Shown here in pieces: positions 43,268 to 54,742 of a DNA stretch of 64,000 nucleotides (position 1 is the stretch's first letter; every line of letters starts with the position of its first letter). The notes below the pieces were generated by a model. It was not told the origin of the DNA. It was given only the letters and a program-made list of their open reading frames with translations, and made no database searches. This DNA is from Candidatus Altimarinota bacterium. Its GTDB lineage: Bacteria > Patescibacteriota > Gracilibacteria > 1-14-2-50-48-13. The DNA lies in the NCBI GenBank assembly GCA_046314355.1, contig JBKBWQ010000001.1, positions 128,001-192,000 on the forward strand. The letters are read 5' to 3'. A program made the position numbers and the translations under genes.

Positions 43268-44710
43268 ATGTCTGATCAAGAGAAGGTTTTAAAAAATCTG
43301 ACTGAAGGTGATTATAAATACGGCTTTACTACTGACATTGCGCAGGACATAGCGGATGTTGGTTTGACTGAAGATACAATCCGCTTTATTTCAAAAAGTA
43401 AGCAGGAACCTGAATTCATGCTTGAGTGGAGACTAAATGCTTTTCGAAGATGGCAGAAAATGACACCTCCCACATGGCAGAATGTAAGTTTTCCTCCCAT
43501 TGATTATCAGGCTATTAGCTACTATGCTGCACCAACTAAGAAAAAGAAACTTGGAAGTCTCGATGAGTTGGATCCTGAACTTAAAAAGACCTTTGATAAG
43601 CTTGGTATTTCACTCGATGAACAGAAGCGTATCAGCAATGTAGCTGTAGATGCTGTTGTGGATAGCGTTTCTGTGGCTACGACGTTTCAAAAGAAGCTTA
43701 AGAAGGCAGGAGTAATCTTTTGTCCTATTTCTGAGGCGATAAGAAAATACCCGAAGGTTGTAGAGCGGTATATTGGTTCAGTGGTTTCTGTCACAGATAA
43801 TTATTTTGCGGCTCTCAACTCTGCAGTATTTAGTGATGGAACATTTTGCTATATACCTAGGGGAATACGCTGTCCTATGGAGCTTTCAACGTATTTCCGT
43901 ATAAATGCAGCAAATACAGGGCAGTTTGAAAGGACTCTGATTATTGCTGATGAAGGATCTCATGTGAGTTATCTTGAAGGCTGTACTGCCCCTCAGAGAG
44001 ATGAGAATCAGCTTCATGCGGCAGTAGTAGAGCTTATAGCACATAAAGGAGCAGAGATTAAGTATTCGACAGTACAAAACTGGTATCCTGGTGATAAAGA
44101 AGGCAAAGGTGGAATTTACAATTTTGTGACAAAGCGGGGTATTTGTGAAGAGCGGGCAAAGATTTCATGGACACAAGTAGAGACAGGCTCTGCGATCACG
44201 TGGAAATATCCCAGTGTTATTCTAAAAGGAGATTATTCAATAGGAGAGTTTTACTCTATTGCTGTGACAAATAATTATCAGCAGGCAGACACAGGAACAA
44301 AGATGATTCATATGGGTAAGAATACAAAAAGCCGGATTATTTCAAAGGGAATCTCTGCAGGCAAAAGCCAAAATTCATACCGTGGACTTGTGCGCATACT
44401 TAAGAATGCAGATAACGCTAGAAACTTTACCCAGTGTGACTCTCTTCTTATGGGTAGTGAATGCGGCGCGCATACATTTCCATATATTGAAGATTCAAAT
44501 AAAACCGCTGTTATAGAACATGAGGCTACTACTTCAAAAATTGCGGAGGATGTCCTCTTATACTGTAATCAGCGAGGGCTTTCTACGGAAGATGCAGTTG
44601 CAATGATTATTGGAGGATATTGCCAGGAGGTACTTGCAGAGCTTCCGATGGAGTTTGCGGTGGAAGCAAAGAATCTTTTATCACTGACACTTGAAGGCAG
44701 CGTCGGATAA
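43268..44710 (+). CDS. sufB: Fe-S cluster assembly protein SufB
   Basis: [36 protein letters not shown]. Confidence 0.97.
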
Positions 44711-44845
44711 GTATAGTAGATATAAGAATACTTTTTCTTATCTATAGTTTTTATAGATGAACAATATTATTTAAAATATTGTTTTTAACTAAAATATAAC
44801 TAATATTGTTTCGAAATAAAAATTTGCAAAGTAAAGGGAGATATT

Positions 44846-45100
44846 ATGAAGGTAGAATTAAAAAGAGAACAAATAAAAATTGAGAGTATATTTCTTGTAT
44901 TGCCTATGATCATTATGTTTTGGCTAGGTAGTAAAGGATTGCTCTATAGTCCCTATCATAAAAAGTTCTTCTTACAGATGTATTTTGTATATGTAGCACT
45001 ATATATCCTCGTAAAAGAATATGAGATCACAAATCATGAGATTAAAATAGGGAGTATAAGTTTTCTTATAATGAGTTTATATATTAAATTCTATCTATAA
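44846..45100 (+). CDS. Small hydrophobic membrane protein inserted between sufB and sufC
   Basis: GGGAG SD, about 3 hydrophobic segments, very AT-rich, own terminator. Confidence 0.5.
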   Translation: MKVELKREQIKIESIFLVLPMIIMFWLGSKGLLYSPYHKKFFLQMYFVYVALYILVKEYEITNHEIKIGSISFLIMSLYIKFYL

Positions 45101-45103
45101 GAA

Positions 45104-45134
45104 AAAAGGACTGATGAAATACATCGGTCCTTTT
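45104..45134 (+). terminator. Intrinsic terminator
   Basis: aaaaggactgatg-aaata-catcggtcctttt. Confidence 0.75.
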
Positions 45135-45283
45135 AATAAAGAACTGCTATAGCCAAATATTCTAATTTGCGCTATAGTTCATTATGACTTGTACATATAT
45201 GTGTGGATGTCGCACAGTGGGTTTTAAAATACTAAGAAACGCCCCTGAATAACAAGAAATTGCTAATATAATTATGTCTTTCA

Positions 45284-46021
45284 ATGTTAAAAATAACTAA
45301 TCTTTCAGTTTCGGTAGAAAACAAAGATATTCTCAAAGATTTCTCACTTGAAATAAAAGCTGGAGAGATACATGCGATAATGGGTCCCAATGGTACTGGA
45401 AAAAGTACACTTGCATCTGTATTGGCAGGTAAGGCAGGCTATAGTATTACCTCAGGCGAGGTCATATTTAATGGTAAGAATCTTTTAGAGTTTTCTCCTG
45501 AGATTCGTGCCAGAGAAGGACTTTTTCTAGCATTCCAGCATCCAGTCGAGATCCCAGGAGTAAGTAATGCACAGTTTCTGAAAAATGCTGTAAATGAGAT
45601 ACGGAAATATAGAGGGAAAGAAACTCTAGATGCCTTTGATTTTGAAGAGTTGCTGAAAGAAAAAATGTCTTTGATGAAAATGAAGGATGAATTCGTGAAT
45701 AGATCTTTCAATGAAGGATTCTCAGGAGGAGAAAAAAAACGTAATGAAATCCTTCAGATGGCATTACTGGAACCTAAGCTTACAATTCTTGATGAGATTG
45801 ATTCCGGATTGGACATTGATGCCCTTCGAATAGTAGCTGAGGGAATTAATACCATTCATGGAAAAGAGGATGGTATTCTTATGATTACACATTATCAGAG
45901 ACTTTTGGATTATATTACCCCCGATTTTGTACATATGATGGTGGATGGAAAAATAGTTAAGACAGGGGGAATAGAGCTTGCAAAAGAGCTGGAAGTAAAA
46001 GGATACATTGATCATATTTAA
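45284..46021 (+). CDS. sufC: Fe-S cluster assembly ATPase SufC
   Basis: [46 protein letters not shown]. Confidence 0.97.
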
Positions 46022-46038
46022 TAATACACTTACACCAC

Positions 46039-46587
46039 ATGGCAGTTTCTTATACATTTGTTCCAAAGCCCTTTAAACTTTACTATGCTTCTACGGAACG
46101 CGGACTTGTAAGTATTATCCCATCTTCATTGAGAAATAGAGATGAGAAAGAAGGAGATATTGTCTCTGCGACGCCTTCAAAGGCATTTGCGGCAGCGTTC
46201 TTATTTCAGCAAGGGAAAGATAGCTGTTTATCAGGCTGCTTTGGAGACATGGTCTATTTTGTGTATAAGGGTACCAAAAAAGAATTCATGAGTCTTGATA
46301 AGGGAGGTGTACTATATGAAGTCTCTTCTGATAACTTTAAATGTGATCCTAAATTTGGATTGGGCTTAATGGAGTGGGTAAGTGATAAGCCTGTTACTCC
46401 GCTTAAATCGGTAGCAGTAGATTCTATCCTGGAGGAAATGATCCAGCAGTATGTACAGGTATATTTTGTAGATGAGGAGACATTCTCTTTATGCAGCACA
46501 TCTCAGGATCATGGACGAAAAATGCTTGATGAGATGACTTCTGAGAATAAAAAACGGAATAAAAATGTTCGGTCACTTTATGCATAA
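46039..46587 (+). CDS. Hypothetical protein, possible ADP-ribosyltransferase-like fold
   Basis: LYYAS..IIP..VSATPSKAFA..GVLYEV..EWVS pattern; tightly packed between sufC and sufD. Confidence 0.5.
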   Translation: MAVSYTFVPKPFKLYYASTERGLVSIIPSSLRNRDEKEGDIVSATPSKAFAAAFLFQQGKDSCLSGCFGDMVYFVYKGTKKEFMSLDKGGVLYEVSSDNFKCDPKFGLGLMEWVSDKPVTPLKSVAVDSILEEMIQQYVQVYFVDEETFSLCSTSQDHGRKMLDEMTSENKKRNKNVRSLYA

Positions 46588-46591
46588 AGTC

Positions 46592-47866
46592 ATGGATAAA
46601 AAAATACTTACAGAAAGACTGCGGGGACAATTTGAACAATTTATTACATTGAGAGAAAAGCTTGAAAGTAATGATGCTATTGTTTTAAGAAGAAAACTCT
46701 TTGATGCATTTGAAAAAAATGGCTTTCCGGACAATAAACTTGAGGAGTGGAAATATACAAATATAAATCAGTTTATAGATGACTCAATGTATCTTTTCAC
46801 TGATAAAGATGGGATTGTACTGCCGAAAGATGAAATATCAGCACTCGTTGAGACGACGGGTGATAATACTGTCGTTTTTGTAAACGGATTCTATAGTGAA
46901 GAGTTATCAAAAGTATGCGGCGGTTGTGTGCAGATCGATGATGCAGGATTTATGTTAAGTGATGTACTTCCTGATGAAGATGGGTACTCATTGCTCCACA
47001 GAGCATTCGCCACTGAAGAGATAACTATTACTTTAGGTGGCACTATAGAGGATTTTCCTGTGAAGCTGCTTTTTTGTACCTACGGAACTGCCTTGCCGTT
47101 TATAGTTCAGCCCCGTCTGAATATTGTGATGCCGGAAGGTGGAGAAGGAATTATTATTGAAAGGTATGCCCACTTTGGAGATCAAAAATGTTTGACTAAT
47201 CTAGAGATAAGGTGCGATTTAGGTACTGATTCAATATTAAAACATTATCGTATTCAGAATTTTTCAGAAAATATGGTGCATGTGCATAACCTGGAAATCT
47301 CTCAAAAAGAGAAAAGTAATTATGAAGTTATAACTGTTACTACAGGAAGTGCTGTTGTAAGAAATACTCAGAGTATCATGCTCACTGAATCCAGCGCAGA
47401 AACGGCATTATATGGAGCATATTCTCTAGATGAGGATGGGTTTGCGGATAATCATACTGAGGTTCTTCATCAAGCATCTGATACAAAGAGCAGACAGATA
47501 TATAAAGGAACATTAGATGCGAGGTCCCATGGTGTATTTAATGGAAAGGTTATTGTAGAGAAAAATCTCATACATATCAATTCTGATCAAAATAATAAAA
47601 CCATGCTGCTTTCTGAAAATGCACGCATGGATACAAAGCCTGAATTACAAATTTTTTCAGACGATGTAAAATGTAGTCACGGCGCTGCACTAGGACACTT
47701 GGACGAAGATACATTATTTTTTATGAGGGCACGTGGTATTGGAGAGCAGAAAGCGAAATACATAATGAATCTCGCATTTATTCAGGACATTATACAGAAG
47801 ATTACAGACGAAGCTCTACGGGAAGAGCTGCTAAGCAATATGAAGAAGAAATTTCTCTTGGAATAA
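46592..47866 (+). CDS. sufD: Fe-S cluster assembly protein SufD
   Basis: GFP..EEWKYT, VFNGKV, TKPELQIFSDDVKCSHGA, FMRARGI. Confidence 0.95.
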   Translation: MDKKILTERLRGQFEQFITLREKLESNDAIVLRRKLFDAFEKNGFPDNKLEEWKYTNINQFIDDSMYLFTDKDGIVLPKDEISALVETTGDNTVVFVNGFYSEELSKVCGGCVQIDDAGFMLSDVLPDEDGYSLLHRAFATEEITITLGGTIEDFPVKLLFCTYGTALPFIVQPRLNIVMPEGGEGIIIERYAHFGDQKCLTNLEIRCDLGTDSILKHYRIQNFSENMVHVHNLEISQKEKSNYEVITVTTGSAVVRNTQSIMLTESSAETALYGAYSLDEDGFADNHTEVLHQASDTKSRQIYKGTLDARSHGVFNGKVIVEKNLIHINSDQNNKTMLLSENARMDTKPELQIFSDDVKCSHGAALGHLDEDTLFFMRARGIGEQKAKYIMNLAFIQDIIQKITDEALREELLSNMKKKFLLE

Positions 47867-47946
47867 TGCTACGCGTACGGACATAAAACTCTTTTCTTTT
47901 CTTGTTTTCTTAATTACACTCTTTTCAATGTTTACTATTATAAGAT

Positions 47947-49164
47947 ATGTTTGATATACAAAAAATACGTCAGGATTTTCCAATTCTAACAAGACAAGTT
48001 CACGATAAACCTTTAGTGTATTTAGATAATGCTGCTACTAGTCAGAAGCCTAGTGCTGTGATTGATTCACTTGTGGATTACTATACACGTTATAACAGTA
48101 ATGTGCATCGAGGCGTTCATACTCTCTCTGAAGAGGCGACACATGCATATGAACATGCAAGAGAGACTGTGAGAAGGTATATCAATGCTGCAAGCACAAA
48201 GGAGATAATCTTTGTAAGAGGTGCAACTGAAGCAATTAATCTCGTAGCGGCCACTTGGGGTAAGGTACATATTCAAAAGGATGATGAAATACTCATTACC
48301 ACTCTTGAGCATCATGCAAATCTTGTTCCTTGGCAGCTGTTATGTGAAGAAAAAGGTGCAAAATTAAAGGTAGTACCTATTACTAGTACAGGTGAAGTAA
48401 GAATAGAAAATGTAGAGGCAATGTTATCAAACAAGACAAAGCTTGTAGCATGTGCACACATCTCAAATGCATTGGGGACTATTTTACCTGTGGAAGAGAT
48501 TATAAGAAGTGCACATGAAAAAGGTATTCCAGTTCTTATTGATGGATGCCAGGCGGTACCTCATATGAGAGTTGATATGCAAAAGCTTGATGCTGATTTT
48601 TATGTATTCTCTGGTCATAAAATCTTTGCTCCTACGGGAATAGGTATTCTTTACGGCAAAGAAACATTACTTAATGCTATGCCTCCATATCAGTCCGGAG
48701 GTGACATGATATCTTCTGTAAGTTTCGAGAAAACTACTTTTAATGAACTGCCATATAAGTTTGAAGCAGGTACACCGGATATCGCAGGTGCCATTGGATT
48801 AGGAGCTGCACTAGAATACCTTGAACAGCTTGATTGGGATGAAATAGCCAAACATGAAAAAGAATTACTAGAATATGCGACAACCATGCTTCAAGAGATA
48901 CCAGGACTGCAGATTATTGGTACAGCACCTCAAAAGGCTTCAGTCATCTCATTTACACTTGGAAATATTCATCCTCACGACGTAGGGACGATCTGCGATA
49001 TGGAAGGTGTTGCTCTTCGTACCGGACACCACTGCGCTCAGCCTGTGATGGAAAGTTTTAATGTACCTGCAACCACACGTGCATCCTTTGCCTTTTATAA
49101 TACTAAGGAAGAAATTGAAATGCTTGTAAAAGCACTTTATAAAGTTTTATCTATCTTTGCCTAA
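47947..49164 (+). CDS. sufS: Cysteine desulfurase SufS
   Basis: YLDNAATSQKP, EHHAN, SGHK, RTGHHCAQP. Confidence 0.97.
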   Translation: MFDIQKIRQDFPILTRQVHDKPLVYLDNAATSQKPSAVIDSLVDYYTRYNSNVHRGVHTLSEEATHAYEHARETVRRYINAASTKEIIFVRGATEAINLVAATWGKVHIQKDDEILITTLEHHANLVPWQLLCEEKGAKLKVVPITSTGEVRIENVEAMLSNKTKLVACAHISNALGTILPVEEIIRSAHEKGIPVLIDGCQAVPHMRVDMQKLDADFYVFSGHKIFAPTGIGILYGKETLLNAMPPYQSGGDMISSVSFEKTTFNELPYKFEAGTPDIAGAIGLGAALEYLEQLDWDEIAKHEKELLEYATTMLQEIPGLQIIGTAPQKASVISFTLGNIHPHDVGTICDMEGVALRTGHHCAQPVMESFNVPATTRASFAFYNTKEEIEMLVKALYKVLSIFA

Positions 49165-49613
49165 TGGAAAATCTTAGAGAGCTCTATCAGCAGGTGATAC
49201 TTGATCATAATAAAGACCCGAAGAACTTTGGTGATCTTGAGCATTGCACGCATCATGCAGAAGGAAGGAATCCTGTATGTGGAGATCATTATATCGTTAA
49301 AATGCTTATTGAGGATACTTTAATTAAAGATATACATTACCAAGGGTCGGGATGTGCTATTTCGAAATCATCCGGATCACTGATGACTTCTATGCTCAAA
49401 GGCAAAACAGAAAAAGAAGCTTTAGAGCTTTTTGATGTATTTCAGAAACTAGTCACATCTTCAATAGAGAGCGAAGTTGATAAGGAAAAACTTGGAAAAT
49501 TAAGTGTATTTGCAGGTGTAAGAGAATTTCCAGCACGAGTAAAATGCGCAAGCCTAGTTTGGCACGCCATGAAGGCTGCAATAGAAAGGGGAAGAGATGT
49601 AACAACGGAATAA
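49164..49613 (+). CDS. sufU: SUF system sulfur-transfer protein SufU
   Basis: LYQQVILDH, NPVCGD, GCAISKSS, RVKCASL. Confidence 0.95.
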   Translation: MENLRELYQQVILDHNKDPKNFGDLEHCTHHAEGRNPVCGDHYIVKMLIEDTLIKDIHYQGSGCAISKSSGSLMTSMLKGKTEKEALELFDVFQKLVTSSIESEVDKEKLGKLSVFAGVREFPARVKCASLVWHAMKAAIERGRDVTTE

Positions 49614-51623: not shown

Positions 51624-52142
51624 CTATGGAATTTTTCTTGGTTTTCTCACTATTGATTTGAGCTCCCGCATTATAGCAAGTGCGTCTTGCCTTTCCTTAA
51701 GCTGAACCAAATAATCTTTCTCCAGAACTGTATCCTGTTCACTGAGTACTTCCACCCATACCCGCATTTCAATAGGAGTACGTGACGGGAGTTTACTTCG
51801 TTTCTTTTCTACTTTTTTAGGAGATTTTTTAGAAATCTTTTTATTCACAACAGTAGCTTTTTTTCTCACTTTTGTTGCAGGCTGTTTTTTTTCTACAGCT
51901 TTTTTTACCTTTGATGCTTTTTTCGTCACTTTCTTTGCTGCGGATTTAATAATTTTACTTCTGCCTGCAGTAGATTTTTTTAGTGGAACTTTCTTTGATT
52001 TTACTGTCTTTATAGAGGATTTCTCTAAAGATTTTTTAGTTTTTAGCTTACGGGAATTTGCCTTCTTTTTTAAAGAAGCATCTTTTACAGAAACTGCCGG
52101 GAATAATGTAAGCTGAGGTATAGTGGCTTTCTTCTTAGTCAT
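51624..52142 (-). CDS. Lys-rich histone H1-like protein
   Basis: Long K/A/S/V low-complexity region plus a short folded C-terminus. Confidence 0.6.
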   Translation of the reverse strand: MTKKKATIPQLTLFPAVSVKDASLKKKANSRKLKTKKSLEKSSIKTVKSKKVPLKKSTAGRSKIIKSAAKKVTKKASKVKKAVEKKQPATKVRKKATVVNKKISKKSPKKVEKKRSKLPSRTPIEMRVWVEVLSEQDTVLEKDYLVQLKERQDALAIMRELKSIVRKPRKIP

Positions 52143-52207
52143 AGTATCAATACCATAAAATCACCGATACGCTAACATGCAGCTAGTAATAAGTCAACGA
52201 TCTGCAT

Positions 52208-52238
52208 AAAAAGAGCTCTAGAAAGTTCTAGAGCTCTT
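52208..52238 (-). terminator. Intrinsic terminator of putative ncRNA
   Basis: Minus-strand AAGAGCTCTAGA-ACTT-TCTAGAGCTCTT followed by T-tract. Confidence 0.8.
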
Positions 52239-52239
52239 C

Positions 52240-52463
52240 GTAGAAATATCTTTGTTCACTAGTGGCTAAGAATAGTGCCGTTAAAGAGGGAAAACACGTA
52301 TATGCAATACAAAACCCTCCTAAGGAATATCTATTTCCGAAAACAAAAAAACGAAAATAGTTACAACATGAGATGTATAATCCTTATATCTCTACTCTAG
52401 TACTCTCTGATTAAATAGTAAGTACTAAAGGAACAATGTGAGTGATAAAGGATTAATTTCTAC
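52240..52463 (-). ncRNA. Putative structured non-coding RNA (~224 nt), family unrecognised
   Basis: Promoter and terminator bracket an ORF-free segment whose 5' and 3' ends pair and that holds 4-5 internal hairpins. Confidence 0.65.
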
Positions 52464-52469
52464 ATTGTT

Positions 52470-52498
52470 ATTTTACAATATAATTGTAGTTACGTCAA
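52470..52498 (-). promoter_or_regulatory. Near-consensus sigma70-type promoter of putative ncRNA
   Basis: TTGACG-17bp-TAAAAT; predicted +1 G at 52463. Confidence 0.7.
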
Positions 52499-52502
52499 AT
52501 AT

Positions 52503-52615
52503 GTAATTAAGTTATTGGTAATTAAGTAATTGAGGCTCATAATTCGGCTGCAATCATTGAGCTCAATTACTTAATTATTGAGCCCAATTATGTGAGCCCC
52601 AATGACTCGAGCCCC
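52503..52615. repeat. Palindromic ~13-bp unit array, copy 2
   Basis: Shares attgagctcaattact(t/g)aattattgagcccaattat with copy 1. Confidence 0.8.
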
Positions 52616-54742
52616 TTACTTCGTCTTCATCTCGTGCACCCCATCCCAATCTTTCTCGGGTGGATTCTTTATATATTCTTCGATGCGGGATTTATATAGT
52701 TTTAAGACAGAATCATTAGGATGTATTTTTATCAGCCGAGCCAAATGCTTCTTTGCTTCAACAAATTCTTTTGCTAGATAAAGTTCATATACTTTCTCAA
52801 AATCTTGTATGTACTTAAGTAGGGGTGTGTCAGCAAGAGATCTCTCTTCAATGAGTTCATATATTTGAATTGGCTGATTTTTTCCTTTTACTTTAATACG
52901 GTCAAGTATTCTAAATACAAATTCTTTTTCTGAGAGAATCTTTGTATTTTCACTGACGCATATTTCTGTACCATATACTTTATTTACTCCTTCCAGCCTT
53001 GAGGCTAGATTTACCGTATCTCCGATCACTGTATAATCAAAACGTTTCTTAGAGCCTATATTACCTACTACCATGTCTCCAGAAGCGATACCAGTACGAA
53101 TACCAACTCCTGCAAAGGTGTTCATAGTCTCTTCATCGGTTACAAGCTTGTTCATTTCCTTATGCATAGACAGAGCGCTTCGGCAGGAGAGTACTGCATG
53201 TTCTTTGAGATCAATTGGTGCCCCCCAAAATGCCATAATGGCATCTCCAATATACTTATCAAGTGTGCCTTCATATTTTAGAATGATGGAGGTCATCCGC
53301 TCAAGGTAGACATGTAAAAAGTCTACTACTTCTTCAGGAGTACGTGTTTCCGAGATCGTAGTGAAGCCTGCAATATCAGTAAATGAGACTGACATATGTT
53401 TCTTCTCTCCACCCAGTGATATCATGGAGGGATGGTCAATAATCTTCCGTACTACTTTATCTGAGACATAGTGAGAGAAGGCAGCGGTTATCTTGTTCTT
53501 AGTACGTTCTTCACGAATATATTTATAAATAATTACGGTTATAAATGTAAGAAGCAGAGCAAGAGGAGGGAACAGGGTATTAAGAACAATCTGTAGTTCA
53601 TTAAAAAACCATAAAGCAGCTACAATATATCCAGCCATAAGCAGCACCATACATATTCCGCTTACCCACGGACGCATACGGTAGAAGAGGAGAGATGCAA
53701 AAATACTGAGTAACAGCAGAATAAAAAATTCTATATATATCGGCACAGACTGAAGTCCTTTATTTGTAAGCATAGTCTCAATTGCATTTGCATGGAGCTC
53801 TACACCGGGCATTAATGTTCCAAAGGATACAGGAGCTGAGACTTCATCGTGAAGTCCAGCATTCATTTCTCCAATAAGAACAATTTTATTTTTAAAGAGT
53901 TCTGGGGAGAAGTCATTATTGTAAACTTTTACGAAAGATACAGAAGGTATACTATTTGCAGGTCCAAAGAAGTTTGTATAAAGATATTCAGTTTCCATGG
54001 GAATAATAATTGGACCATAATTCTTTCCAGTATCGGGGTTTTTTATTTTATCCTTGAGTATAACTAGTGATTTTTCAACTGCAGTTATCTCTGAAGAAGA
54101 GAGATCAAAAAATCTTCTAATGATTTCAAGAGAAAAACTGTTCTTGATGAGATCTGAATTTACTTTAAGTGGTATGTTTCTAACTGTTGCATCTGTATCA
54201 AGCGGCACATAGACGCTTCCTAGACTCATTGAAGTGCTTTTAGAATCATAGATGGTATTTACAGGTATAAGAGCAGGAGTGCCTTCCTTGGCGGCAAGTA
54301 CGATGTCTGGGTGCAGTGCGATTTTTTTTCCAAGCTCCTTATCGTCATTTGCTAATATTTCTTTTAATTTTTCTTCGTTCTCATCGCCCTCAAATACTCC
54401 TGTAAAAGCCTCATTTGCAGGTTCAGTAAAAAGCACATCTATTCCTATCACTTTTGCACCAGCGTTCTGAAGGTTTTGTACCACTTGAGCAAAATAAGTC
54501 CTTCTCCAGTTTTGCCACCGGCCTAGACCTCCTTCTGACTGCGCTTTTAGACTTTCCTCATCTATTTTTACCACCACTACATCTCCTGTATGATAACTGG
54601 TCTGATAGGAGTAGAGAAAATTACTGATCTTTAAATGCCATGAAGTAAAACCTCCAGCAAGTTCTACAGCAAAAAGAAAAATGCTGATTAAAAGAGCAAT
54701 GAAAGATATTTGGAAGATACGTGATTTTGAAGAGGCTTTCAT
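52616..54742 (-). CDS. CHASE2-domain adenylate/guanylate cyclase (class III)
   Basis: VVVVKIDEESL..W..WRR, PGVELHANAI, 3 TM, FTDIAGFTTISE, DKYIGDAIMA, GDTVNLASRLEG. Confidence 0.93.
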   Translation of the reverse strand: MKASSKSRIFQISFIALLISIFLFAVELAGGFTSWHLKISNFLYSYQTSYHTGDVVVVKIDEESLKAQSEGGLGRWQNWRRTYFAQVVQNLQNAGAKVIGIDVLFTEPANEAFTGVFEGDENEEKLKEILANDDKELGKKIALHPDIVLAAKEGTPALIPVNTIYDSKSTSMSLGSVYVPLDTDATVRNIPLKVNSDLIKNSFSLEIIRRFFDLSSSEITAVEKSLVILKDKIKNPDTGKNYGPIIIPMETEYLYTNFFGPANSIPSVSFVKVYNNDFSPELFKNKIVLIGEMNAGLHDEVSAPVSFGTLMPGVELHANAIETMLTNKGLQSVPIYIEFFILLLLSIFASLLFYRMRPWVSGICMVLLMAGYIVAALWFFNELQIVLNTLFPPLALLLTFITVIIYKYIREERTKNKITAAFSHYVSDKVVRKIIDHPSMISLGGEKKHMSVSFTDIAGFTTISETRTPEEVVDFLHVYLERMTSIILKYEGTLDKYIGDAIMAFWGAPIDLKEHAVLSCRSALSMHKEMNKLVTDEETMNTFAGVGIRTGIASGDMVVGNIGSKKRFDYTVIGDTVNLASRLEGVNKVYGTEICVSENTKILSEKEFVFRILDRIKVKGKNQPIQIYELIEERSLADTPLLKYIQDFEKVYELYLAKEFVEAKKHLARLIKIHPNDSVLKLYKSRIEEYIKNPPEKDWDGVHEMKTK

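What the first reader, a model, noticed from the sequence alone, without database searches (positions are those of the whole stretch)
52208..52498. Candidate novel ~224-nt structured ncRNA with its own promoter and terminator
Seen (minus strand): TTGACG-17-TAAAAT puts +1 at G52463, exactly the first base of a closing stem (5' GUAGAAAU..AUC.UUU..UCACU with 3' AGUGA..AAAGAU.AUUUCUAC). That stem ends at 52240, immediately before a 12-bp terminator. Internal hairpins: UAGUACUU/GAGUACUA, GAGAU.AUAA-GGA-UUAU.AUCUC, CUAUUUUCG-(U-rich loop)-CGGAAAUAG, GAGGG..GUAU/AUAC..CCCUC and a weak GGC/GCC. The only AUGs give 1-2 codon ORFs. It lacks the signatures I know for tmRNA, RNase P and SRP. Inference: a stable multibranch RNA of unknown class, or a highly divergent 6S-like RNA.
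Basis: partly seen in the sequence, partly recalled or inferred. Interest (0 to 1): 0.8.

Follow-up and report, generated by a model that had tools for sequence, protein, structure and literature searches.

The report
Orphan structured small RNA gene
Between two protein genes of a small-genome uncultured bacterium lies what looks like a gene for a folded RNA of about 224 bases that matches no described RNA family and recurs at the same spot in two related genera; its function is unknown.

Summary
On the minus strand the window has TTGACG-17-TAAAAT (52498..52470), a G at 52463 that opens an 8-bp helix with 52247..52240, and next to it a 13-bp terminator hairpin with a U-run. The 224-nt core folds better than shuffles (z -3.3). 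Rfam gives nothing, either at gathering score or at E<=10.

The window's order holds four genomes. Two other genera carry a 232-nt and a 264-nt counterpart directly downstream of the same CHASE2-cyclase gene. They share the promoter layout and a 5' GYAGAAR / 3' YUUCURC end helix (23 of 23 cells paired, 3 of 8 pairs changed on both sides). The fourth genome has none at that site.

The interiors cannot be aligned, and single-sequence covariance models do not find one another's counterparts. No RNA run is listed.

It is not RNase P RNA or tmRNA, which lie elsewhere. The genome has no SRP system. It does not look like the typical 155-165-nt 6S RNAs of sister families.

Verdict: probably a real orphan structured sRNA gene restricted to this order. 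Its mechanism is only inferred.

The parts
52470..52498 (-). Sigma-70-type promoter: -35 TTGACG (52498..52493), 17-nt spacer, -10 TAAAAT (52475..52470)
   Evidence: 10 of 12 matches. The same layout stands before the counterparts in G002 (TTGACG-18-TACACT) and G003 (TTGCGC-17-TATTAT). A near-identical -10 region elsewhere in the genome precedes a protein gene that has an AGGAGG site.
52240..52463 (-). 224-nt structured RNA core; the start at G52463 is inferred
   Evidence: MFE -51.7 kcal/mol, z -3.30, 1 of 200 shuffles as good. No Rfam match. No ORF from AUG longer than 2 codons. Single copy in the genome.
52456..52463 (-). 5' strand of end helix P1 (GUAGAAAU); consensus GYAGAAR in three genera
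   Evidence: Pair probability 0.96. 23 of 23 cells paired in three sequences and 3 of 8 pairs changed on both sides.
52240..52247 (-). 3' strand of end helix P1 (AUUUCUAC); consensus YUUCURC
52395..52430 (-). Hairpin H1 (RNA 34-69), CUUUAGUACUU / GAGUACUAGAG
   Evidence: p 0.98. In all three RNAs a hairpin ends just before the GAGAU motif (my reading).
52388..52392 (-). GAGAU motif (RNA 72-76), present in all three RNAs 54-77 nt after the 5' motif
   Evidence: In G002 and G003 its GAU pairs with GUC or AUC on the 5' side of the same arm. AUC 18-20 could do the same in G000 (constrained fold).
52331..52360 (-). Hairpin (RNA 104-133), CUAUUUUCG - U-rich 12-nt loop - CGGAAAUAG
   Evidence: p 0.98.
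52284..52321 (-). Hairpin arm (RNA 143-180), AGGAGGG/CCCUCUU with UGUAU/AUACG; carries a GGAGG-like motif
   Evidence: p 0.89 and 0.92. GGAGG-like motifs at comparable places in G002 and G003 were read by eye.
52257..52283 (-). Last small arm (RNA 181-204, GGC/GCC core) and UAGUG motif (RNA 203-207) at the junction before the 3' end strands
   Evidence: GGC/GCC p 0.75. UAGUG is invariant in all three sequences. The corresponding arm in G002 (UACCAC/GUGGUA) and G003 (UAUUGC/GCAAUA) differs on both sides at 3 of 6 pairs.
52208..52239 (-). Intrinsic terminator: 13-pair hairpin, loop ACUU, U-run
   Evidence: In G002 and G003 there is no separate hairpin: the U-run follows the 3' strand of P1 directly.
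52499..52615 (-). Repeat-rich spacer between the cyclase stop codon and the RNA promoter (context, specific to G000)
   Evidence: Folded from 52499 to 52616: z -5.10, 0 of 200 shuffles as good. It holds a 16-nt perfect inverted repeat, 52519-52534 with 52562-52577, and three direct-repeat families.
52616..54742 (-). Upstream neighbour: CHASE2 + class III nucleotide cyclase gene (708 aa), the syntenic anchor
   Evidence: Pfam CHASE2 1.5e-47 and Guanylate_cyc 1.2e-26. Orthologues at 41-48% identity in G001-G003.

Best explanation
This is a gene for a stand-alone, non-coding, highly folded small RNA of a family not yet described. It appears restricted to one small order of a reduced-genome bacterial class that looks like the Gracilibacteria group of the candidate phyla radiation; that placement is my inference.

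Shown from sequence:
- A sigma-70-type promoter places the start at about G52463.
- The first 8 nt pair with the last 8 nt of a 224-nt core.
- An intrinsic terminator follows at once.
- The same arrangement (promoter, GYAGAAR 5' end, YUUCURC 3' end, U-run) stands directly downstream of the orthologous cyclase gene in two other genera. There the next gene is convergent, so the element cannot be a 5' leader.

Inferred: the RNA is made as a discrete transcript. Its paired ends and compact branched fold make it long-lived. It acts in trans as a protein-binding or scaffold RNA. The conserved parts (the end helix, GAGAU on the first arm, UAGUG at the last junction) would be the recognition surface, and the freely diverging arms would be spacers.

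My odds: about 0.7 that it is a real RNA gene. Given that, about 0.4 that it works by binding protein rather than by base pairing.
For: Anatomy.

No known family: 0 Rfam matches at gathering score in the 64-kb window. Only 10 weak matches at E<=10 in 551 nt, the best 23 bits against a cut-off of 49. 0 matches at E<=1 in the two counterpart loci.

Conservation:
- The order and the family hold the same 4 genomes.
- 3 of the 4 have the element directly after the cyclase stop codon. The metagenome contigs L033 and L034 read the same as G002 over the 501 bases shown.
- The promoter and 5' end align.
- P1 has 23 of 23 cells paired and 3 of 8 pairs changed on both sides, against 42-60% paired and 0-1 such pairs when the partner is slid by 1-3 columns.
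- In 100,000 shuffles of each spacer, the 5' motif together with a perfect 7-nt complement at least 150 nt downstream arose 98 times (G000) and 27 times (G003).
- Each counterpart folds better than shuffles: G002 z -2.61 (4 of 200), G003 z -2.82 (1 of 200).
- The independent ensembles of G002 and G003 give the same order of elements: P1, a long arm, a second closing helix, a long arm, a short arm, UAGUG. G000 can adopt this order at -50.0 against -51.7 kcal/mol.
- The short arm differs on both sides at 3 of 6 pairs between G002 and G003.

Not a leader: the next gene in G002 and G003 is a convergent sufU.

Not coding: no small ORF is conserved in frame or has a stop codon inside the transcript in all three.
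Against: - No transcript evidence: no RNA run is listed for this sequence.
- There are only three sequences, all related by descent, so synteny counts as one event.
- The P1 shuffle control is weak: 26 of 500 shuffles reach the observed values.
- In the shuffle test the real G002 spacer did not meet the strict criterion, because its first pair is G-U.
- The interiors are not alignable. Local alignment scores are reached by 362 of 500, 369 of 500 and 38 of 500 shuffles.
- A covariance model of the G000 fold does not find G002 or G003: of the 91 matches at E<=10 in 21 kb, the best E was 0.15 and none covers the counterpart RNAs. A model of the G002 fold finds neither G003 nor G000 at E<=1 in 22 kb. 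Its best hit inside the G003 region is 3.5 bits and it finds nothing meaningful in the window.
- The 'shared architecture' is therefore my reading of three separate ensembles, not a tested consensus, and for G000 it is not the minimum-energy fold.
- The fourth genome of the order (G001, 85% complete) has only a 75-nt spacer at the site. Its three pattern matches elsewhere lack a 3' partner.
- Promoter-like sites are no more frequent here than in shuffles.
- Nothing bears directly on protein binding.
Confidence: 0.55

Rival explanations
1. A trans-acting base-pairing sRNA. It would be transcribed from its own promoter and ended by the terminator, with an exposed conserved stretch that pairs with mRNAs to change their translation or decay.
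For: The promoter, terminator and U-tail are the standard form of bacterial sRNA genes. The short conserved motifs GAGAU, UAGUG and a GGAGG-like stretch could be seeds. C/U-rich stretches such as CCCUC occur in each RNA (my reading).
Against: The best-conserved sequence, the 5' end, is locked in a helix that keeps pairing through changes on both sides. That points to structure, not a seed. The RNA is large and almost wholly paired. No target search was made.
Confidence: 0.15
2. A cis element of the neighbourhood rather than a gene. It would be a structured 3' UTR and terminator region of the cyclase mRNA. In G002 and G003 it would also be a barrier or antisense partner between the convergent cyclase and suf transcription units.
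For: It is always directly after the cyclase gene. In G002 and G003 there is no terminator between the cyclase stop codon and the element, and the U-run abuts the stop codon of the convergent sufU. A distant cyclase orthologue on a metagenome contig (L035) is also followed by an ORF-free, strongly folded stretch, z -4.48.
Against: A promoter with conserved spacing to the conserved 5' end sits between the cyclase gene and the element in all three genomes. In G000 the element is not next to suf: three genes lie between. G000 also has a separate folded spacer before the promoter. Of the 30 cyclase loci of the class that I scanned, only G002 and G003 carry a promoter, an end helix and a U-run. G000, whose U-run follows a separate hairpin, is missed by that scan.
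Confidence: 0.12
3. A very divergent 6S-type RNA that binds RNA polymerase holoenzyme by mimicking an open promoter.
For: No 6S RNA was detected in any of the 4 genomes of the order, whereas 33 of 121 genomes of the class have one, so the role is vacant. The paired ends and the size class are loosely similar.
Against: RF00013 gives no match at E<=10 in the genome or the region. The 10 6S RNAs of the class that I read are 154-164 nt and fold mostly as one long arm. This RNA is 224-264 nt and branched. In G003 there is about 1 nt where the 5' strand of the bubble should be. The five class 6S loci that I examined lie beside M50 peptidase/MurJ, PolX, or creatininase/T4SS-pilin genes, not cyclase or suf. 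Many other families of the class also lack a detectable 6S.
Confidence: 0.06
4. The mRNA of a small hydrophobic peptide (type I toxin-like). Translation would be held off by the pairing of the 5' and 3' ends and by burial of the ribosome-binding site.
For: A GGAGG-like motif is followed by a start codon and a hydrophobic reading frame in each RNA: G000 UUG, 17 aa; G002 AUG, open beyond the RNA; G003 UUG, open beyond the RNA. Closure of the two ends is known from hok-type mRNAs (recalled, not tested).
Against: The frames are not the same relative to the invariant UAGUG. In 2 of 3 RNAs there is no stop codon before the U-run. In AU-rich sequence I/F/Y/L-rich frames arise by composition. No antisense partner was seen.
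Confidence: 0.04
5. No function: a promoter-like site, a terminator and a chance long-range helix in a fast-evolving spacer.
For: Promoter-like sites are as common as in shuffles. The interiors are unalignable. One genome of the order lacks the element at the site.
Against: The same 7-nt 5' motif sits at the same distance from a -10 element, with its complement 210-250 nt downstream next to a U-run or terminator, in three genera whose flanking protein is only 41-48% identical. All three have z-scores between -2.6 and -3.3.
Confidence: 0.08

Closest known systems
6S RNA (Rfam RF00013)
   Same: A stand-alone, abundant-type bacterial RNA whose two ends pair. Its structure is conserved much more than its sequence. 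Here no typical 6S was found in the order.
   Different: No covariance-model match at all. It is 224-264 nt and branched, whereas the 10 class 6S RNAs I read are 154-164 nt and fold mostly as one long arm. No single-stranded central bubble is conserved. The genomic neighbours differ.
Y RNA / YrlA with Ro (Rsr) protein
   Same: The conserved part is the helix formed by the 5' and 3' ends, and the interior varies.
   Different: No TROVE-domain (Ro) protein gene in the genome. No Rfam match. About twice the length (length of Y RNAs recalled).
Orphan large or medium structured bacterial ncRNAs known only from comparative analysis (for example raiA-motif, OLE, ROOL; names recalled)
   Same: A multi-arm fold, its own transcription unit, narrow taxonomic range, function not evident from context.
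   Different: No match to any of those Rfam models. The support here is three sequences, whereas those families (recalled) rest on far more.
hok-type type I toxin mRNAs
   Same: A compact RNA of a few hundred nt with its 5' and 3' ends paired, its own promoter and terminator, and a Shine-Dalgarno-like motif buried in a helix.
   Different: No reading frame is conserved or closed inside the transcript in all three RNAs, and no antisense RNA gene was seen.

Membership tests
6S RNA (RF00013) | Scores with the family covariance model | tested here: not met
   No match at E<=10 in the whole genome. No 6S row among the 10 matches at E<=10 in 52100..52650. 0 of the 3 other genomes of the order at E<=0.01.
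6S RNA (RF00013) | One long irregular duplex with a large central bubble whose 5' strand is single-stranded | tested here: not met
   The minimum-energy and ensemble folds are branched in all three RNAs. In G003 the corresponding 5' strand is about 1 nt. These are predicted folds only.
6S RNA (RF00013) | Binds RNA polymerase holoenzyme and templates product RNAs | not testable with these tools
   Needs experiment.
RNase P RNA (RF00010) | Covariance-model match; one gene per genome | tested here: not met
   The genome's RNase P RNA is elsewhere, at C1:1260698-1261138, 149 bits. Nothing in the window.
tmRNA (RF00023) | Covariance-model match with a tRNA-like end | tested here: not met
   The tmRNA is at C1:790733-791154, 105 bits. 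Nothing in the window.
SRP RNA (RF00169, RF01854) | Covariance-model match, and an Ffh partner in the genome | tested here: not met
   No SRP RNA match at E<=10. No Ffh M domain. No SRP54-type GTPase above the cut-off. Ffh M domain found in 0 of 61 genomes of the class.
Y RNA with Ro | A Ro (TROVE) protein gene in the genome | tested here: not met
   PF05731: no match at E<=0.01.
Stand-alone bacterial sRNA gene (generic kind) | Own promoter and intrinsic terminator flanking a non-coding stretch | tested here: met
   These are consensus matches and a fold, not mapped ends.
Stand-alone bacterial sRNA gene (generic kind) | Conserved in relatives, with pairing kept through changes on both sides | tested here: met
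   For the end helix only: 3 of 4 genomes, 23 of 23 cells paired, 3 of 8 pairs changed on both sides. The interior is inconclusive.
Stand-alone bacterial sRNA gene (generic kind) | A discrete transcript | not testable with these tools
   No RNA run is listed for the sequence.
Riboswitch or 5' leader | Lies upstream of a co-oriented regulated gene | tested here: not met
   In G002 and G003 the next gene is convergent. In G000 a full terminator separates it from the next ORF.
Type I toxin mRNA | A conserved small hydrophobic ORF closed inside the transcript | tested here: not met
   The frames differ relative to UAGUG, and 2 of 3 have no stop codon before the U-run.
Miniature inverted-repeat transposable element | Several copies in the genome | tested here: not met
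   The only other match in the 1.69-Mb genome is the terminator palindrome hitting itself on the other strand.

The most novel reading that the evidence does not exclude
The RNA is a new class of sensor or effector RNA coupled in function to the CHASE2 nucleotide cyclase beside it, for example an RNA that binds the cyclase's cyclic-nucleotide product. In G002 and G003 the end helix P1 is followed directly by the U-run. A ligand that stabilised P1 would therefore itself cause termination; without it, transcription would run antisense into the suf operon. A folded RNA also follows a distantly related cyclase gene on metagenome contig L035. No natural cAMP- or cGMP-binding RNA is known to me (recalled).
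Probability: 0.05. Interest if true: 0.85.

Novelty: new member of a known kind. Interest (0 to 1): 0.42.

Why it matters
I found no paper that pairs these reduced-genome, uncultured bacteria with non-coding RNA (three searches). This lineage lacks the SRP system and, in this order, a detectable 6S RNA. A conserved, independently transcribed RNA of 220-260 nt would therefore be one of very few regulatory or structural RNAs known there. If real, it gives a handle on regulation in organisms that cannot yet be grown. Its constant position beside a sensor cyclase gives a concrete hypothesis to test. On present evidence it is a well-formed candidate from three genomes, not a characterised family.

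Tried and rejected
**Known families.** Rfam was searched over the whole window, the region at E<=10 and the counterpart loci: nothing usable. RNase P RNA and tmRNA lie elsewhere. SRP RNA, Ffh and FtsY-type GTPases were not found. No Ro protein gene.

**Homologues by DNA similarity.**
- BLAST of the 301-nt region found nothing beyond 28-35-nt chance pieces in 41 genomes.
- One of those pieces (L004) is only a similar -10 region before a protein gene.
- The genome-contig scan with the cyclase gave four distant loci from other phyla, of no use.
- The metagenome scan gave two contigs that read the same as G002 where I looked, plus the distant L035.

**Sequencing runs.** No RNA holder is listed; the one holder is a DNA run.

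**Structure-aware alignment.** mafft-qinsi is not usable in the box because MXSCARNA is missing.

**Covariance models.** Single-sequence models R1 (G000 fold) and R2 (G002 fold) did not recover the other two RNAs. The third model was not built.

**Pattern searches.**
- Promoter plus 5' motif in the four genomes of the order recovered the three known sites. Nine of the other twelve sites lacked a 3' partner. L073 and L084 had only a 7-of-8 partner with no U-run. L076 (G002:C3) is left open and listed under noticed in passing.
- Both end motifs plus A-run in 401 genomes of the class matched in 196 genomes. The control columns looked of similar size, which I judged by eye and did not sum, so this was uninformative.

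**Other loci of the class.** Downstream of the cyclase orthologues, most are followed at once by stop-to-stop frames. That filter is unreliable, since it also covered the G002 RNA. A direct scan for an end helix plus U-run found a promoter-preceded case only in G002 and G003.

**Smaller checks.** Pairwise local alignment of the cores is not significant. Small ORFs are not conserved. Neighbours of the class's 6S genes share nothing with this locus.

**Literature.** Three full-text searches (Gracilibacteria + signal recognition particle; candidate phyla radiation + 6S RNA; Peregrinibacteria + noncoding RNA) gave 5, 0 and 0 papers. Of PMC8080830 I read one passage only. Supplements were not consulted.

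Full report
**1. What is in the sequence**

Read on the minus strand, the spacer between a CHASE2 + class III nucleotide cyclase gene (52616..54742; Pfam 1.5e-47 and 1.2e-26) and a lysine-rich 172-aa ORF without family matches (51624..52142) contains the following:
- TTGACG (52498..52493), a 17-nt spacer and TAAAAT (52475..52470), 10 of 12 consensus positions.
- G52463, 7 nt after the -10 element.
- A 224-nt stretch whose first eight bases (GUAGAAAU) pair with its last eight (AUUUCUAC, 52247..52240).
- Directly after it, a 13-pair hairpin with loop ACUU and a U-run (52239..52208).

The consensus terminator scan did not list this hairpin, so I read it from the fold.

The core has MFE -51.7 kcal/mol against -38.8 +/- 3.9 for shuffles (z -3.30, 1 of 200 as good). 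With the terminator z is -6.89. In the ensemble the end helix has probability 0.96. The proposed GAGAU..AUCUC hairpin is not among the helices with p >= 0.25.

The only internal AUG opens a 2-codon frame. The element is single-copy in the 1.69-Mb genome. The promoter match taken alone is not beyond chance (7 sites against 5.6 +/- 2.4 in shuffles).

**2. Known families**

Rfam release 15 gives no match at gathering score in the whole window. In 52100..52650 it gives ten weak matches at E<=10, the best 23 bits against a cut-off of 49. None of them is to 6S, RNase P, SRP RNA or tmRNA.

In the whole genome:
- RNase P RNA is at C1:1260698-1261138, 149 bits.
- tmRNA is at C1:790733-791154, 105 bits.
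- 6S RNA, small SRP RNA and large SRP RNA give nothing at E<=10.
- Ffh is absent too: no M domain and no SRP54-type GTPase above the cut-off. Across the class, 0 of 61 genomes match the M domain.

One passage of PMC8080830 already says that SRP subunits are absent from many bacteria of the candidate phyla radiation, so this is a known trait. It rules out an SRP RNA here.

Many genomes of the class read through TGA in the cyclase orthologue. Together with genome sizes of 0.6-2 Mb, this is why I place the class near Gracilibacteria. That placement is my inference.

**3. Relatives**

BLAST with the 301-nt region finds no homologue in 41 related genomes. The order equals the family and holds four genomes. 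I therefore went by synteny.

- In G002 (L027) the cyclase gene is followed by TTGACG-18-TACACT, then GCAGAAGG.., and 232 nt later ..CCUUCUGU and a U-run.
- In G003 (L028) it is followed by TTGCGC-17-TATTAT, then GCAGAAAGG.., and 264 nt later ..CCUUUCUGC and U7.
- In both, the next gene is a convergent sufU, so the element is not a 5' leader.
- In G001 (85% complete) only 75 nt separate the cyclase gene from a peptidase gene.

The promoter and 5' end align. On the alignment of the cores, the end helix has 23 of 23 cells paired and 3 of 8 pairs changed on both sides. With the partner slid by 1-3 columns, 42-60% of cells pair and 0-1 pairs change on both sides. With only three sequences, 26 of 500 shuffles still reach the observed values.

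In 100,000 shuffles of each spacer, the 5' motif together with a perfect 7-nt complement at least 150 nt downstream arose 98 times (G000), 13 times (G002) and 27 times (G003). The real G002 fails this strict test because its first pair is G-U.

G002 and G003 fold better than shuffles: z -2.61 (4 of 200) and z -2.82 (1 of 200). Rfam finds nothing in them at E<=1.

**4. Is the interior conserved?**

This is the weak point.
- Local alignments of the cores are not significant: 362 of 500, 369 of 500 and 38 of 500 shuffles score as high.
- A covariance model of the G000 minimum-energy fold does not find G002 or G003.
- A model of the G002 fold finds neither G003 nor G000 at E<=1 in 22 kb.
- Restricted to the G003 region, its best hit is 3.5 bits. 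That hit does line up the last arm and the UAGUG motif.
- In the window the G002 model only picks up the terminator.

On the other side, the independently computed ensembles of G002 and G003 show the same order of elements:
- P1.
- A long irregular arm that starts right after P1 and carries GAGAU on its 3' side. The GAU of this motif pairs with GUC or AUC.
- A second closing helix that begins where that arm ends.
- A long arm.
- A short arm (UACCAC/GUGGUA in G002 and UAUUGC/GCAAUA in G003, 3 of 6 pairs changed on both sides).
- UAGUG, and then the 3' strands.

G000 can take the same arrangement at -50.0 kcal/mol against -51.7 for its minimum. That is not its preferred predicted fold. I regard the common architecture as a hypothesis, not a result.

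**5. How far does it reach?**

- A pattern for promoter plus 5' motif recovers the three known sites. It gives three further sites in G001, none with a 3' partner.
- A class-wide pattern for both ends was uninformative.
- Of the 30 cyclase loci of the class that I scanned, only G002 and G003 have a promoter-preceded end helix followed by a U-run. G000 is missed by that scan because a separate hairpin stands between the helix and the U-run.
- A distant cyclase orthologue on metagenome contig L035 (32% identity) is followed by TTGACA-17-TTTAAT and an ORF-free stretch. Its first 9 nt pair about 180 nt downstream, and a long terminator hairpin follows (z -4.48, 0 of 200). The end helix there has a similar sequence with the strands swapped. 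I cannot tell whether this is homology, analogy or chance.

**6. What it is not**

*6S RNA.*
- The class does have typical 6S RNAs: 33 of 121 genomes at E<=0.01, and 8 over the cut-off. The 10 I read are 154-164 nt and fold mostly as one long arm. None is in this order.
- The five 6S loci I examined lie beside M50 peptidase/MurJ, PolX, or creatininase/T4SS-pilin genes.
- The present RNA is longer and branched, has no model match, and in G003 leaves no room for a single-stranded 5' bubble strand.
- The vacancy is suggestive, but every testable defining feature fails.

*Other kinds.*
- Y RNA: no Ro gene.
- Riboswitch or leader: there is no co-oriented downstream gene in two of three genomes.
- Mobile element: single copy.
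- Small-protein mRNA: each RNA has a GGAGG-like motif followed by a hydrophobic frame. But the frames differ relative to the invariant UAGUG, and two of the three have no stop codon before the U-run.

**7. Most likely mechanism**

Shown: the anatomy, the positional conservation and the maintained end helix.

Inferred: a discrete primary transcript from about 52463 to the U-run. Paired ends and a compact fold would protect it from exonucleases. It would act in trans. The parts under selection are a helix and two junction motifs, while the arms drift freely, so I favour a protein-binding or scaffold role over a base-pairing seed. I put this at about 0.4 of the 0.7 that I give to its being a real RNA gene.

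Rivals are listed with their tests: a base-pairing sRNA, a cis element of the cyclase/suf convergence, a 6S analogue, a peptide mRNA, and no function.

The boldest reading left open is a sensor RNA coupled to the neighbouring cyclase. Its end helix followed directly by the U-run would then be the switch itself. I give that 0.05.

**8. Novelty and verdict**

No described family fits. Three full-text searches found no paper that pairs these lineages with 6S RNA or non-coding RNA, and the only relevant passage concerned SRP loss (search listings, and one passage of PMC8080830). Supplements were closed.

The kind (promoter, structured RNA, terminator) is ordinary and the family is new, so I file it as a new member of a known kind. 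It is a good candidate that rests on three genomes, one maintained helix and no expression data. Interest is moderate.

- No RNA run is listed for the sequence; this counts neither for nor against expression.

Noticed in passing
whole genome G000 and class sample: No SRP system was detectable. There is no SRP RNA, no Ffh M domain, no SRP54-type GTPase above the cut-off and no DTAGR motif in any frame of 150 aa or more. The Ffh M domain was found in 0 of 61 genomes of the class. One passage of PMC8080830 says SRP subunits are absent from many bacteria of the candidate phyla radiation, so this is known.
   Followed up: partly
window 52499-52616 (minus strand): The spacer between the cyclase stop codon and the RNA promoter is full of repeats built around TTGAGCTCAA-like palindromes. 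It has a 16-nt perfect inverted repeat (52519-52534 with 52562-52577) and three direct-repeat families, and it folds with z -5.1. It could be the cyclase terminator or an operator for the RNA promoter. G002 and G003 have nothing like it.
   Followed up: partly
window 51624-52142 (minus strand): A 172-aa ORF whose first ~120 residues are rich in lysine, with a short non-repetitive C-terminal part. It has no Pfam or NCBIfam match and I saw no Shine-Dalgarno-like site before its ATG. It is not at this position in G001-G003.
   Followed up: no
L035:4590-4912 (metagenome contig, downstream of a 32%-identical cyclase): TTGACA-17-TTTAAT is followed by an ORF-free stretch of about 280 nt. Its first 9 nt pair about 180 nt downstream, and a long terminator hairpin follows (z -4.48, 0 of 200). 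This may be an analogous RNA beside a cyclase gene in another lineage.
   Followed up: partly
L076 (G002:C3, about 26.3-27.1 kb, minus strand): A gap of about 660 nt, G+C-rich by eye, lies between the clear ORFs; one 129-aa stop-to-stop frame lies inside it. It begins with TTGCGT-18-TATACT and GUAGAAAG. The 228 nt I folded form a compact structure at -75.1 kcal/mol; no shuffle control was run. No Rfam match at gathering score. It could be another unannotated RNA or a chance pattern hit.
   Followed up: partly
G000:C1:790733-791154: The tmRNA is found by the Rfam model at 105 bits, but ARAGORN with -m did not call it. It may be an unusual form.
   Followed up: no
G000:C1 near 1569524 (plus strand): An open frame of about 6006 residues: a giant gene in a 1.69-Mb genome.
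   Followed up: no
class genomes, cyclase orthologues: Many orthologues in families f22 and f30 carry 1-33 in-frame TGA codons, as expected for a reassigned stop codon. The window's own order has none.
   Followed up: no
window 43268-49613 and relatives L026-L028: The suf genes (sufB, sufS and a sufU-like gene) lie near the cyclase gene in all four genomes of the order. In G000 three extra genes and the RNA lie between the two.
   Followed up: partly
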